Source of the DNA: Haliotis rufescens
Taxonomy: Eukaryota
Direction of reading: 5' to 3'
DNA length: 64,000 nucleotides
Assembly (NCBI RefSeq): GCF_023055435.1
Contig: NW_025963813.1
Coordinates: 27,590,001-27,654,000 of the forward strand
Positions 32,137 through 49,599 of the stretch are shown here, one piece after another. A program made the position numbers and the translations under genes. The notes below the pieces were generated by a model that saw only the letters and a program-made list of their open reading frames with translations, had not been told where the DNA came from and did no database searches. Position 1 is the first letter of the stretch. Every line of letters starts with the position of its first letter.

Positions 32137-32268
32137 AGTAGTATAAGTAATGGTGATTCTGGCTCACATCAACTGGAGCCAGATTTATATACCTATACCA
32201 CCACTACAGGGGGGATTTTTTGTGCAAAAATGATGATGCCATTCAACGATCGTCATATATGCATGAGA

Positions 32269-32523
32269 TTAAACTAAATTGTAATGAAAATATTCTCTAT
32301 TATTTTTATTCATATGTATACCATTATTTTTAACAAAGTGATACTCAACATTTTTACGAAGTTCTTCGTTCATTTGACTAGGAGACGAGACTATATACTC
32401 TTCTTGGTAATTGGAAAGAAACAATTGATGGCCGTATTTGGTTGGTTTGATATCACTGATATAATATATACCTTGTGGTAATTCTTTCCATTTGATAATT
32501 TTGTCCCTGAGCATAAATTCCAT
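32269..32523 (-). CDS. Small Polinton ORF of unknown function (~84 aa)
   Basis: MEFMLRDKIIKWKELPQGIYYISDIKPTKYG...YFHYNLV; preceded by AATATATAATA-ATG; mostly deleted in copy 2. Confidence 0.5.
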   Translation of the reverse strand: MEFMLRDKIIKWKELPQGIYYISDIKPTKYGHQLFLSNYQEEYIVSSPSQMNEELRKNVEYHFVKNNGIHMNKNNREYFHYNLV

Positions 32524-32602
32524 TATTATATATTTATGGAAGCATTCTTCTAAATGTTGGTTTTGGCACGGAATAATTGACACGCTTGTTGTCTTCCCTG
32601 TT

Positions 32603-33097
32603 CTATGAGCTTTTTTCCTCGTCTTCGCTACTAATACCACTGGTCTTTGATGGAATCTCCTGCTTCATTGCGTTGTATTTGGTGAGTTCTGACAACACTA
32701 AACGAAACTCCTTCTCGGATATCTTACAATCAGCCATTGCTGTTGAAATATGATCCTCAATGCTGTTCAACTTTGCTTCGGCGAGTATACGAATATTATC
32801 ATGTTTTAATGCTTTCTTTTGCAACTTATGAGAAATGAAACTTATCGCGATTCCTGCCAGTCCTGAGACTCCGGCGGCTATTTGCATACCAAGTATGATA
32901 GGCGCGGCAATTATAGTTGATAGTAAACCAACACCGGCTACACCGAGTCCCATGCCAGCTGTTACAAGCGCGGTGTCAACTCCGTCAAGAGCATTGACGG
33001 CTCTGCAATACTTTTTATACAATCCAAGTCTCAACTCCCTACCCTTCTCTATTCGATGTTTTATGTCGCTTATTTTGATGTAATCGAAATCCATCAA
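32603..33097 (-). CDS. Polinton protein with Gly/Ala-rich hydrophobic hairpin (membrane-associated, function unknown)
   Basis: GVDTALVTAGMGLGVAGVGLLSTIIAAPIILGMQIAAGVSGLAGIAI; conserved in copy 2 (59233-59850). Confidence 0.75.
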   Translation of the reverse strand: MMDFDYIKISDIKHRIEKGRELRLGLYKKYCRAVNALDGVDTALVTAGMGLGVAGVGLLSTIIAAPIILGMQIAAGVSGLAGIAISFISHKLQKKALKHDNIRILAEAKLNSIEDHISTAMADCKISEKEFRLVLSELTKYNAMKQEIPSKTSGISSEDEEKSS

Positions 33098-33117
33098 CTA
33101 GTGTATATTATTATTAT

Positions 33118-45589: not shown

Positions 45590-45754
45590 ATGACATGTTG
45601 TATCCAAACATTTCCAAACAAATCCAAACAAATCCAAACAAATCCAAGCTTGGAAATATGACTTTGCCAAATATTGGAATGGTCATATTTCCAATTGGAA
45701 TGGTGGTATTTCCAAGTTTTGGATTTTTTGGAATGGATGATATTTTGTCCAGTG
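45590..45754. mobile_element. Right end of a CACTG-terminal (CMC/EnSpm-like) DNA transposon
   Basis: Ends ...TTTTGTCCAGTG exactly where pPolB resumes (RGPDAA); subterminal TCCAA/TTGGA repeats in both orientations. Left end not found. Confidence 0.5.
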
Positions 45755-48109
45755 AGAGGTCCCGATGCAGCGGGAAAGTTCCTAGAATATCTACAAAATG
45801 AAGAGAGAATAATCAGTGAAAATTTAACGCGTAAGAAACCAATGTGTATGACGAGGGATGATTGGAGGGCCTATAAGAAGTCAACGAGTTGTCATGTTTG
45901 TAATAAACCCCTGAATGGGGATTCCGTAAGAGATCATTGCCATGTCATGGGTAATTATCGGGGAGCCGAGCATAACGAGTGTAACTTGAAACTAAATATG
46001 AATTCTCAAACAATACCCATCCCTGTTGTGTTTCATAACCTTAGAGGATACGATTCCCATCTCATTATGCAAGCTATCTCAAAGATCGACGGCGGCTTAA
46101 CGTGTATTCCTAATGATATGGAAAAATATATATCGTTCTCATTGACTAAAACTATACATTATACGGACAAGGATGGGAAAGCCAGAATAAAGCAAAGTAA
46201 TGGACTTAGATTCATAGACTCCGTACAGTTTCTGTTATCTTCCCTGGACAATTTAGCTAATGCGAACAATCCTGATGACTTTGCAATAACAAATCAATAT
46301 ACCGATCGGTGCCGTCATTTGTTGCTGAGAAAAGGTGTATATCCTTACGAATATATGGATGATTGGTCTAGATTCGACGAAACTAAATTACCACCCCTTG
46401 AATCATTCTACAGTAACTTAACTTAATCTAAAATGACAGATGCCGATTATGAACACGCTCTGACGGTCTGGGATAAATTAGGTTGTAAGAATTTAGGTGA
46501 TTATCACGATCTGTACTTAAAAACCGATGTACTGTTACTCGCCGATCTATTCGAGATATTTAGAAAGACATGTTTACAATACGGCTTGGACCCGGCATGG
46601 TACTATTCCAGTCCCGGACTATCGTGGGATGCATTGTTGAAGAAGACCGGTGTAGAACTAAAACTACTCACAGATTACGATATGCACTTGTTTATTGAGA
46701 AATGATTAAGAGGTAATATATCGATCGTAGCGAAAAAGGTATCCTAAGGCTAATAATAAATTAGTGGAAGGATATGATCTGAGTAAACCCGACACGCACA
46801 TATTATATCTCAACGCCAACAATTCGTACGGATGGGCTATGAGTCAACCTTTACCCAAGGGTGGTTTTGAGTGGTTCGATGATATCGAAACGAATGATAT
46901 CTATAATATCAATGTGAATAAAGGGTACATACTAGAAGTTGACTTGGAATATCTAAAATCGTTAGTTACATAAAGATCATAACAGTTATCCGCTAGCTCC
47001 CGAAAGATTAATGGTGAATAAAGATTGGATGTCGGAATATCAACACTCCTTGATGGGTAGTACAAACTCGTACCAAATTTGATGGCTAAGACAAAATATA
47101 TAGTTCACTACAGAAATCTCCAGTTATATCTATCGTTAGGTTTGAAACTAAAGAAAATACACAGAGTTCTAAAGTTTGATCAAAGCCCTTGGATGGAGCC
47201 CTATATAAGGCTGAACACAGATTTAAGAAAGATAGCCACCAGCGATTTTGAAAAGAATCTATATAAGCTCATGAATAACTCAGTATTTGGTAAAACCAAT
47301 GGAGAATCTAAGGAAGTGTGTTGATGTTAAATTAGTCAGAATTAATGAGGAAGAAAGACTCAGGAAACTTATAGCCAGTCTGGCTTTTAACAGAAGCAAG
47401 ATATTCGATAACGACTTAGCGGCGTTGCATATGCAGAAGAGTAATATAAAATTCAACAGACCGCTGTACGTTGGTATGAATATTCTTGACTTGTCAAAAC
47501 ACTAAATGTATGACTTTTATTACAATGAACTTAAGAAGCAATACGGCGATAGATGCGAGGTGTTATATACCGATACAGATTCTTTGTTGATGGAAATAGA
47601 AAACCGAGGAAGTGTATAAAGAAATGGCAGAAAAAATAGATATGTACAACACGAGCGATTACCCTAAAGATAATCCACTGCACAGCATAGTAAATAAAAA
47701 GGTGTTAGGTAAGATGAAGGATGAATGTGCTGGGACCCCTATAGCGGAGTATGTCGGATTAAGACCTAAGATGTATTCTATAAAGAAGTCCGATAATGGA
47801 GAGATAAGAAAAGCTAAGGGTGTTAAGAAGTATGTGGTAAAAAAGCATATCAAACACGAACAGTATAAAGAAGCATTATTCAAGGGTAGAACATTCAAAC
47901 ACAAGATGAACTCTTTAAGAAGTTACAATCATAGGATATATGGATTAAGAATGAACAAGACATCATTATCCCCCTTAGATTCAAAGAGATGGATTGATAA
48001 TGATGGTGTAACTACCTATGCTTATGATTATGGTGGTAATACTGTATTGTTGGGAACTATGAGCAGCTCTTCTCGTACAAATGCCCTGCCCGGTCCATCT
48101 TTAAGATAA
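45755..48109 (+). pseudogene. polB: Protein-primed DNA polymerase B, main body (multiple stops and frameshifts)
   Basis: CHVC..VRDHCH..G.YRGA.H..CNL (endonuclease VII-like insert), FHNLRGYDSH, FIDS, RKGVYPYEY, DVLLLAD, (D>N)[38 protein letters not shown]. Confidence 0.95.
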
Positions 48110-48965
48110 TAAAGAATAGGCTCTCCTTCTTTCAAAACCAAACGACTAATGTTATATGTCTTAAGAGACCAAATCGGATCGGTTGCGCGACGTAGGCCTC
48201 CTTCGAGTTCACCGGGTTGGTATAAATATCTTACACTTACTCTATCCGGAAGTTTTTGTTCTTTGCCTCTCCTCGGTGCTGAATATTAGGAAGTCACGGA
48301 TTTCATTTTAATCGCATCGGATGGTTTCTTCCCGATTAATCTTGTTACTTCACTATTCAGCGCTGATACAACAGCTGATAAACGTGTCACCCATTCGGTT
48401 GATCTCAATCGCTCCGATTTCATTTTGATCCCATACTGATAGCCAAACAAACGTTCCGCTAATATCCGGTTAAATCTTTCAACGATAGCTTGACTACGGT
48501 GGGCCTCTTTTTCACCATGCCTGATTTTGACAGTTTAGTTATTGATCCCATAAACTCACGACCAGGATCTACTTGAAATAGCTTAGGCCATTTTAGTGGT
48601 CCACGTTTATATATGCGACTCAGTGCATTAGCTACTTCTGTTGAATCTTTCGAGGTTAATGGCTCAGCCTCTTTGTATCGACTAGCCACACCCACTACGG
48701 TTAAAGCGTATTTATATGTTTTGTGTCTTATCTTATCATGGGGAAGAAACAAGAGATCAGCCTGATGAACTTCATTTGTTGTAAAAATATCAAACTTCTT
48801 TTTTCGGTATATAACGAGGTGCCGGTAAGTATATTTGCCACATCGCTTGTTTCTTTAACCAATCCTTGGCCACATCTTTAGATACCTTAGCTGCGGTGGC
48901 TAATTTTTTTAATGCTCCTATACCTTTCCAATATCCTCCTGGTCTCTAGTAAATTTTATCAATTA
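48028..48965 (-). pseudogene. Retroviral-like (rve) integrase of the Polinton
   Basis: HQADLLFL, YKYALTVV(D>G)VASRYK, QVDPGREF, QAIVERFNR; convergent with polB, next to the right TIR. Confidence 0.92.
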
Positions 48966-49599
48966 TTAATTAATATTGATGTTTCTTTTAATACGACTCA
49001 TGACGATCGTTGAATCGCATCATCATTTTTGCATAAAAAAAATCCCTCTATAGTGGTGGTATAGGTATATAAATCTGGCTCCAGTTGAAGTGAGCCAGAA
49101 TCACCATTACCTATACTACTGGAAGTGATAGGACGAGCAAGGGAGAGAGGGGGTGATATGGTGAGCAAGGGAGAGAGGGGGTGATATGGTGAGCAAGGGA
49201 GAGAGGGGGTGATATGGTGAGCAAGGGAGAGAGGGGGTACTAGGATGGGCAAGAGAGCGGGAGAGGAAGTTACTTTGAATAATCAGCTTACCATGGCGTG
49301 CCTGCTTGATGTGGAAGTACTCTCGAAATGATACAGATCTAAGACTTTTAGCAATTAAGTGGAACTCACGGGTTAGATGTTGACAAACCTTGAATATTGT
49401 TCAGGGCAAAATACCAACTGTACACAGCGAGTTAATACCCTCAAACAACTGGATCTACATTGTGTTTAGGCGACTATTCACGTCCTAGTTTTGATAACGT
49501 TTGTGATTATTTTATCAAATCAAGGTGCTGAGTGTTTCTCGTTTAATAAGGCTATGCAAAGCGATCCATAGGGCGAAAAAAAGGTATTTCACAACTCTT

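What the first reader, a model, noticed from the sequence alone, without database searches (positions are those of the whole stretch)
32137..49120. Polinton-type endogenous virus with no visible protease and a large membrane-protein module
Seen: TIR to TIR the element has pPolB, integrase, ATPase and probable MCP and mCP. I find no adenain-like His/Asp/Gln-x5-Cys motif. About half of the ~13 genes carry hydrophobic segments (32603, 34513, 35809, 38962, 39256, 39937, 40209), and the three inside the span of copy 2 are conserved there. Established: canonical Polintons/Mavericks encode an adenovirus-type maturation protease and few membrane proteins. Inference: a distinct invertebrate lineage whose virion has an internal membrane or envelope and a different maturation/entry route. 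I cannot tell whether it is already described. Caveat: part of the element was deleted around 41690-45754.
Basis: partly seen in the sequence, partly recalled or inferred. Interest (0 to 1): 0.82.

Follow-up and report, generated by a model that had tools for sequence, protein, structure and literature searches.

The report
Known protease-free polinton with membrane genes
This is a decayed virus-like element in an animal genome from a lineage already known to lack the usual capsid-trimming enzyme; what appears undescribed is its conserved set of membrane proteins, which hints at a lipid-containing particle.

Summary
The element is real but decayed: terminal repeats, DNA polymerase, integrase, packaging ATPase and a double jelly-roll capsid gene (intact homologue: Z 24.9 to PBCV-1). 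No adenain-type protease was found. The suspected deletion cannot hide one: it removes about 85 codons inside the polymerase, and the 4 kb there is foreign DNA. The lineage is already described. Capsid and ATPase match Polinton-3_NV/N1_NV of Nematostella (compared by eye). These were tabulated as protease-negative in 2014 and called chimeras with a PLV-type capsid in 2015. The protease gap is therefore the normal PLV state. The membrane module is partly confirmed: 6 of 14 genes rather than 7 of 13, because 38962 is probably not a gene. Two large genes keep their hydrophobic segments across relatives (76 of 85; 72 of 73 with at least two) and show no signal peptide. One folds confidently but matches nothing in PDB or BFVD. 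Ten paper searches found no account of this module. My best reading is a particle with an inner lipid membrane (about 0.4). A naked capsid with membrane-piercing and holin-like proteins is a close rival (0.35).

The parts
32137..32256 (+). Left terminal inverted repeat (starts AGTAGT)
   Evidence: 92.6% to right TIR over 121 bp; termini and 5-bp target duplication with one mismatch
32269..32523 (-). g1, 84-aa soluble ORF, function unknown; mostly missing from copy 2
   Evidence: no family match
32603..33094 (-). g2, 163-aa protein with a central Gly/Ala-rich hydrophobic hairpin
   Evidence: KD19 2.25; 85% aa identity to copy 2; no homologue search made
33119..33925 (-). g3, about 268 codons, interrupted by stops here; soluble; possible spike/fibre (inferred from position next to the penton candidate only)
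   Evidence: one open frame in copy 2; no Pfam, PHROG or significant PDB match
33925..34501 (-). g4, probable minor capsid protein (penton); broken here, open in copy 2; not verified
   Evidence: size, position and a recalled C-terminal pattern; no database match
34514..35834 (+). g5, about 430-aa tail-anchored protein: folded domain of unmatched structure, Pro-rich linker, C-terminal transmembrane helix; broken by stops and frameshifts
   Evidence: 1357 homologues; 76 of 85 with a hydrophobic segment, nearly all at the C-terminus; homologue model pLDDT 87.9; no structural match
35809..36969 (-). g6, about 410-440-aa protein in relatives: helical/coiled-coil body, then hydrophobic helix, Gly/Pro linker, amphipathic helix and two more hydrophobic segments; broken here
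   Evidence: 930 homologues; 63 of 73 with exactly three hydrophobic segments, 72 of 73 with at least two; hydrophobic moment up to 1.7
37010..38249 (+). Major capsid protein, double jelly-roll, Polinton-3_NV/PLV type; broken by a frameshift and stops
   Evidence: 845 homologues; tblastn; model and fold searches; by-eye match to P3_NV
38200..38874 (+). A32-like packaging ATPase, interrupted
   Evidence: Pox_A32 E 1.4e-7; same motifs as Polinton-3_NV and N1_NV ATPases, by eye
   Evidence: L001 homologue 54% over 39172-39525; KD19 1.68
39936..40175 (+). g10, 79-codon small moderately hydrophobic protein with one internal stop; weak holin resemblance
   Evidence: KD19 1.49; phrog_14453 holin E 1.2e-4 over 37 residues, may be compositional
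40209..40622 (+). g11, N-terminal hydrophobic helix followed by a charged helical region; 3' end uncertain
   Evidence: KD19 1.73; no homologue search made
40620..40782 (+). Remnant of a small Cys-rich ORF; its start is unclear, so a small deletion at this junction cannot be excluded
   Evidence: a Cys-rich ORF lies at the matching place in L001 (by eye)
40800..41690 (+). Protein-primed DNA polymerase B, 5' part
   Evidence: aligns to long polymerase homologues
41690..45754 (.). Foreign 4-kb insertion (non-LTR retroelement RNase H / zf-RVT fragment at 42019-42685 minus, other repeats) where about 85 polymerase codons are missing
45755..48030 (+). Protein-primed DNA polymerase B, 3' part, with an endonuclease VII-like domain; several stops and frameshifts
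48028..48990 (-). Retroviral-type (RVE) integrase, in pieces
   Evidence: rve E 7.7e-6
49000..49120 (-). Right terminal inverted repeat (ends ACTACT)
59089..64000 (+). Second copy of the left arm (TIR to the start of the capsid gene), cut by the window end
   Evidence: 83-85% nucleotide identity; per-gene dN/dS 0.40-0.78

Best explanation
A dead genomic copy of a chimeric animal virus of the Polinton-3_NV/N1_NV clade: a Polinton-type replication and integration module (protein-primed polymerase, RVE integrase, TIRs) joined to a PLV-type particle module (double jelly-roll capsid, probable penton, A32 ATPase). SHOWN: the parts list, the capsid fold, the clade match (by eye) and conserved hydrophobic segments in g5 and g6. 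INFERRED from the literature: the protease is absent because PLV-type particle modules do not carry one, not because this copy lost it. INFERRED mechanism: after excision or replication from the TIRs, the capsid protein assembles on a host-derived membrane seeded by the virus's own signal-less membrane proteins (tail-anchored g5, multi-helix g6, small g2/g9/g10/g11). The ATPase pumps DNA into this lipid-lined shell, as in tectiviruses and large DNA viruses (established knowledge, recalled). At entry the inner membrane and the amphipathic end of g6 breach or fuse with the endosome, replacing the protease-plus-lipase route. Confidence is about 0.9 in the identity and about 0.4 in the inner-membrane mechanism; the score below is for the whole statement.
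For: Clade: the window capsid translation is identical to the printed P3_NV capsid at 25 of 58 and 23 of 53 positions in two ungapped blocks (counted by eye), and the ATPase motifs agree. Polinton-3_NV, N1_NV, N1A_NV and N1B_NV are all scored protease-negative (PMC4028283 Table S1). They are called possible chimeras with a PLV-type capsid (PMC4642659) and a small clade next to PgVV (PMC11296320). Membrane module: g5 and g6 are large conserved families (1357 and 930 hits) flanked by the penton candidate and capsid gene. Among the top 120 hits of each search, 8 (capsid/g5), 10 (capsid/g6) and 17 (g5/g6) share a contig length, a proxy for linkage. One capsid and one g6 homologue carry consecutive locus tags. 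Hydrophobic segments are conserved, and signal-peptide-like starts are near absent (1 of 85, 0 of 73). No lipase or PLA2 family was found in the scanned frames, whereas PgVV particles carry a putative lipase. The best capsid matches are viruses with inner membranes (PBCV-1 Z 24.9, rmsd 3.6, 347 aligned; faustovirus 23.3; ASFV 21.2), above Sputnik (17.1) and adenoviruses (15.2).
Against: No particle, lipid or proteomic data exist here. The capsid ranking is not diagnostic: Polinton and PLV capsids in general resemble large-DNA-virus capsids (PMC10120064). g5 and g6 match no known virion membrane protein. Membrane-active proteins occur in Polinton-like viruses not known to have lipids. In the passages seen, the nearest isolated relative, PgVV, is described as having a proteinaceous shell. 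Four of the six hydrophobic genes were checked only in this window. The clade match rests on by-eye counts, with no tree.
Confidence: 0.4

Rival explanations
1. Same element, but a naked protein capsid. g6 is a membrane-piercing entry protein (like adenovirus protein VI or the cupiennin-like adintovirus proteins), g10 and other small ones are holin-like exit proteins, and g5 is a non-structural protein anchored in host membranes.
For: g6 has a strongly amphipathic Lys-rich helix (moment 1.5-1.7); g10 has a weak holin match; membrane-active and holin-like proteins are reported across this virus group.
Against: g5 is about 50% identical across relatives and sits inside the structural gene cluster, which is unusual for a host-modulating accessory gene (inference); six hydrophobic genes is more than lysis alone needs (inference).
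Confidence: 0.35
2. The particle gains an outer envelope or travels in vesicles, with g5 as a surface fusion or attachment protein, as proposed for nematode Polinton fusogens.
For: g5 has a large folded domain, a flexible linker and a terminal membrane anchor; fusogens exist in nematode Polintons.
Against: Signal-peptide-like start in only 1 of 85 g5 homologues, median 4 cysteines, so the domain should face the cytosol; no structural likeness to any fusion protein was found, which is weak evidence.
Confidence: 0.1
3. A maturation protease exists but is unrecognised (g3, g9 or the g5 domain with its conserved Cys and His residues), or was lost from this copy at the g11/Cys-rich junction near 40550-40620.
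For: Pfam is insensitive for this family: 6 of 6 long polymerase homologues missed DNA_pol_B_2. g5 has invariant His100, His114, Cys152 and near-invariant Cys88, Cys93. g3 and g9 were not folded. Intact relatives could not be fetched.
Against: Four Nematostella members are scored protease-negative. The g5 model returned no protease fold among 48,161 chains (best Z 3.7; weak evidence). The large gap is inside the polymerase. The integrase was still detected in the same X-read scan.
Confidence: 0.15

Closest known systems
Polinton-3_NV, Polinton-N1_NV/N1A/N1B (Nematostella vectensis; PMC4028283, PMC4642659, PMC11296320)
   Same: Same capsid family (43% identity in two ungapped blocks, by eye), same ATPase family, polymerase plus RVE integrase, no protease, similar size (14.4-16.6 kb against about 13.4 kb here once the insertion is discounted, my estimate).
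   Different: A diverged subfamily. Whether the Nematostella elements carry g5, g6 and the small hydrophobic genes could not be checked. Penton is scored absent in 3_NV and present in N1_NV.
Polinton-like viruses, class Aquintoviricetes (PgVV/Gezel-14T, TsV)
   Same: Minimal particle module of capsid, penton and ATPase without protease; the literature places the P3_NV capsid next to PgVV or within PLV group X. A 2026 preprint reports Octocorallia, Hydrozoa and Bivalvia ATPases among Aquintoviruses, possibly this clade.
   Different: Animal host; RVE integrase and polymerase of Polinton type; no lipase found; several membrane proteins.
Maverick-Polinton groups 1 and 2 / adintoviruses (Polintoviricetes)
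   Same: TIRs with AG...CT ends, short target duplication, polymerase, RVE integrase, ATPase; also encode membrane-active proteins.
   Different: They carry an adenain protease and a different capsid lineage; their membrane-active proteins are PLA2X, GasderminX and cupiennin-like, none of which was detected here by Pfam.
Inner-membrane double jelly-roll viruses (PRD1 tectivirus, PBCV-1, iridoviruses, ASFV)
   Same: Capsid fold, A32/P9-type ATPase; PRD1 also has no protease and many small membrane proteins (recalled).
   Different: No homology found between their membrane proteins and g5/g6; a functional analogy only.

Membership tests
Polinton-3_NV/N1_NV clade | Capsid protein of the P3_NV family, distinct from Maverick-Polinton capsids | tested here: met
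   25 of 58 and 23 of 53 identities in ungapped blocks, colinear motifs; counted by eye, no computed alignment or tree
Polinton-3_NV/N1_NV clade | ATPase of the same family | tested here: met
   shared Walker A/B context and downstream motifs, by eye
Polinton-3_NV/N1_NV clade | Protein-primed polymerase plus RVE integrase within TIRs | tested here: met
Polinton-3_NV/N1_NV clade | No maturation protease | tested here: met
   Pfam sensitivity limited, no positive control with a decayed adenain
Polinton-3_NV/N1_NV clade | Same accessory (membrane) gene set | not testable with these tools
   Repbase elements not available; motif searches of held supplements found nothing (the file was cut)
Maverick-Polinton groups 1/2 (Polintoviricetes, adintoviruses) | pPolB and RVE integrase, TIRs, target duplication | tested here: met
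Maverick-Polinton groups 1/2 (Polintoviricetes, adintoviruses) | Adenain-type cysteine protease | tested here: not met
   no Pfam peptidase in pieces or X-read frames, no motif; g3 and g9 not folded
Maverick-Polinton groups 1/2 (Polintoviricetes, adintoviruses) | Maverick-Polinton-type capsid protein | tested here: not met
   matches the P3_NV type, which the literature places outside this lineage; best adintovirus structure in BFVD only 12% identical; no tree built
PLV (Aquintoviricetes) | Double jelly-roll capsid of a PLV lineage | tested here: inconclusive
   fold shown; PLV placement only by way of published trees of P3_NV, which differ (group X, next to PgVV)
PLV (Aquintoviricetes) | Single jelly-roll penton | tested here: inconclusive
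   g4 is a candidate; no sequence match; not folded
PLV (Aquintoviricetes) | A32 ATPase present, protease absent | tested here: met
Inner-membrane double jelly-roll viruses | Lipid membrane inside the capsid | not testable with these tools
   needs particles
Inner-membrane double jelly-roll viruses | Homologues of known virion membrane proteins | tested here: inconclusive
   g5 by fold and g6 by profile gave no match; a missing match does not exclude kinship

The most novel reading that the evidence does not exclude
The Polinton-3_NV clade is a large, widespread group of animal viruses (at least 845-1357 protein clusters per core gene) with a small icosahedral particle that keeps an inner lipid membrane and needs no protease. 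That would make it the living intermediate between membrane-containing tectiviruses and the giant DNA viruses, with a tail-anchored protein (g5) of a fold not yet seen in solved or predicted viral structures.
Probability: 0.3. Interest if true: 0.8.

Novelty: new member of a known kind. Interest (0 to 1): 0.5.

Why it matters
The lineage and its missing protease are in print, so the headline is not new. But the clade has been treated as a two-element oddity of a sea anemone. Here its core proteins have roughly a thousand relatives each, with named hits in a sea slug and in bins from lucinid clam symbioses. It carries a conserved, unannotated membrane module. Models derive Polinton-like viruses from membrane-containing tectiviruses and the giant viruses from Polinton-like ancestors, while adenoviruses and virophages have no inner membrane (recalled). 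A small animal virus of this group with one would fill that gap. g5 and g6 give concrete markers for finding and testing its particles.

Tried and rejected
Protease hidden in the 41690-45754 gap: rejected. 38962 as a separate membrane gene: not supported. Conservation in copy 2 as evidence of special selection on membrane genes: rejected, since all 6 genes compared behave alike. dN/dS of 0.40-0.78 by an uncorrected counting method mixes past selection with decay. Fold searches for g5: 0 BFVD matches at E<=0.001; best Z 3.7 among 48,161 chains and 2.6 among 916; the model is over 400 residues and single domains were not folded, so this does not prove a new fold. ESM Atlas gave no usable lead for g5. 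Profile searches of PDB sequences with the capsid, g5 and g6 alignments found nothing significant. g6 gave only coiled-coil and tape-measure-type weak hits. Complex prediction of capsid with the g5 domain gave no verdict: score 0.00, alignments not used, partner fold uncertain. It counts neither way. No capsid match in the phage or plasmid collections. The genome-contig scan gave 1 locus from 15 candidate stretches, a 4.6-kb degraded fragment, too short to test gene content. The frames of 37000-38850, the insertion and copy 2 were scanned against Pfam only as selected pieces, not as whole frames. Ten paper searches found no description of this membrane module; subscription papers, Repbase reports and preprint supplements were not visible.

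
Full report
What is there. The 17-kb stretch is one element bounded by inverted repeats at 32137-32256 and 49000-49120 (92.6% over 121 bp). It has AGTAGT...ACTACT ends and a 5-bp target duplication with one mismatch, in a 28-bp minisatellite. I count 14 genes, most broken by stops or frameshifts: g1, g2, g3 and g4 on the minus strand, g5 plus, g6 minus, then capsid, ATPase, g9, g10, g11, a Cys-rich remnant and the polymerase on plus, and the integrase on minus. 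Pfam identifies the ATPase (Pox_A32, E 1.4e-7), the integrase (rve, 7.7e-6) and, weakly, the polymerase and capsid. A second copy of the left arm starts at 59089 (83-85% identical).

The capsid gene. One piece retrieved 845 relatives, those of full length about 430 residues. One intact natural relative aligns over 37013-38246 at 63-74% identity. Its model, from an alignment of 77 of the 120 listed hits, has pLDDT 80.5. It matches double jelly-roll capsids throughout: grouper iridovirus E 6e-17; PBCV-1 Z 24.9, rmsd 3.6 over 347 residues; Sputnik Z 17.1; adenoviruses about 15. The 50 listed BFVD matches are only 7-14% identical. The penton call (g4) is plausible from size and position but unverified.

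The missing protease. No peptidase family was found in 38 pieces or in 18 whole frames read with X at stops. No adenain-like motif was found either (recalled pattern). Sensitivity is limited: the same scan found the integrase, but 6 of 6 long polymerase relatives missed their own Pfam family. Of 54 polymerase relatives of 700 residues or more, 45 align on both sides of 41690-45754, and 41 of them place the gap at 65-104 residues within the polymerase. The 4 kb is inserted DNA, including an RNase H retroelement fragment. A smaller loss near 40550-40620 cannot be excluded.

The lineage is known. PMC4028283 (I read parts 1-2 of 4 of the text and supplements 1 and 4) prints the capsid of Nematostella Polinton-3_NV. 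Against the window translation I count by eye 25 of 58 and 23 of 53 identities in two ungapped blocks, with colinear motifs elsewhere. The ATPases of Polinton-3_NV and N1_NV show the same motifs (PMC4642659 supplement passages). Table S1 scores Polinton-3_NV, N1_NV, N1A_NV and N1B_NV as protease-negative. PMC4642659 (passages and section 7) says no PLV encodes the protease, and that two sea-anemone Polintons may be chimeras of a PLV-type capsid with Polinton polymerase and integrase. PMC10120064 (passages) puts cnidarian capsids outside the Maverick-Polinton cluster. PMC11296320 (passages) calls them a small clade beside PgVV. Preprint 10.64898/2026.06.19.733378 (passages, parts 2-3 of 5) finds octocoral, hydrozoan and bivalve ATPases among Aquintoviruses. 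Preprint 10.1101/2025.04.19.649669 (passages) assigns 40.8% of bivalve viral regions to PLVs. So 'distinct lineage without protease' is correct but published. I built no tree, so membership rests on the by-eye match.

The membrane module. Six of 14 genes have hydrophobic segments, five at a 19-residue mean of 1.6 or more and g10 at 1.49. The stretch at 38962 reaches 1.85 but is probably not coding: the related locus L001 aligns through the stop at 39220 and has nothing matching upstream of 39172, and 247 of 1678 shuffled open stretches pass the same threshold. Only g5 and g6 were tested across relatives. g5 has 1357 hits. Of 85 near-full-length ones, 76 have a hydrophobic segment, almost always in the last 40 residues. 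A natural relative folds at pLDDT 87.9 into a domain of about 365 residues, a disordered linker and a terminal helix, with no match in BFVD or PDB. g6 has 930 hits; 63 of 73 have three hydrophobic segments around a strongly amphipathic helix. Signal-peptide-like starts occur in 1 of 85 and 0 of 73 by a simple hydropathy rule. The genes travel together, judged by shared contig lengths and by consecutive locus tags. Their conservation in copy 2 is no greater than that of neighbouring genes.

How it probably works. Replication and integration follow the Polinton pattern (established knowledge). The particle module is of PLV type and so has no protease (literature). The open question is what the membrane proteins do. 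Lacking signal peptides, they should insert from the cytosol, which argues against an outer glycoprotein envelope. A highly conserved tail-anchored protein inside the structural cluster, a multi-helix partner, several small hydrophobic proteins, no lipase and no protease together recall tectiviruses and large DNA viruses, which build the shell on an inner membrane (recalled). I put this at about 0.4. The rival (0.35) is a naked capsid with a membrane-piercing g6 and a holin-like g10 (weak PHROG match). It is well precedented: PMC8502044 (passages), preprint 10.64898/2026.10.13.758929 (passages) and preprint 10.1101/2023.08.22.554363 (passages) report membrane-active, holin-like and fusogen genes in this virus group. 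Preprint 10.1101/2022.07.28.501842 (passages) describes PgVV as a protein shell with a putative lipase. The capsid's likeness to membrane-containing viruses is not diagnostic.

Novelty and score. This is a new member of a known kind. Ten searches found no description of the module, and PMC11131425 (parts 2-3 of 9, section 8, passages) mentions only frequent proteins of unknown function in coral elements, with no occurrence of 'membrane' in its text. Subscription papers, Repbase reports, preprint supplements and the cut supplement of PMC8502044 could hold such a description. The size of the clade, the unmatched g5 structure and a testable inner-membrane hypothesis keep it at 0.5.

Noticed in passing
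window 30417-31375 and 31375-32333: Perfect 958-bp tandem duplication (100%) that copies the minisatellite and the first ~197 bp of the element, giving an extra left TIR at 31179-31302; either very recent or an assembly artefact.
   Followed up: partly
window 6069, 12061, 14443(-), 26307, 50298, 54030(-), 56293(-): At least seven copies of a sulfatase coding segment (Sulfatase and SGSH_C domains), 45-87% identical to the 50298 copy, on both strands: a host sulfatase gene cluster around both viral insertions.
   Followed up: partly
window 41690-45754: Nested insertion with a non-LTR retroelement RNase H/zf-RVT fragment (42019-42685 minus), a 75-bp repeat shared with 29817-29892, and an imperfect palindrome at 45612-45733.
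   Followed up: partly
window 24409-24480 and repeat family D14: Marginal tRNA match (Rfam 29.9 bits) within a dispersed repeat, probably a tRNA-derived SINE.
   Followed up: no
P0002, P0004, P0016, P0444; L001: Proteins of this viral clade are deposited as hypothetical proteins of bacterial (Ca. Thiodiazotropha) and archaeal (Iainarchaeum) genome bins, most likely host or viral contamination of those bins.
   Followed up: no
P0103, P0115, P0120: Database entries that fuse capsid and ATPase in one protein; probably gene-model artefacts of adjacent, overlapping genes, but read-through was not examined.
   Followed up: no
L001 1473-3137 (-): In this relative the polymerase faces the opposite way relative to the capsid cluster, consistent with a mobile replication module.
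   Followed up: no
g5 family (alignment A2): Invariant His100, His114, Cys152 and near-invariant Cys88, Cys93 could form a metal or catalytic site; model coordinates were not inspected.
   Followed up: no
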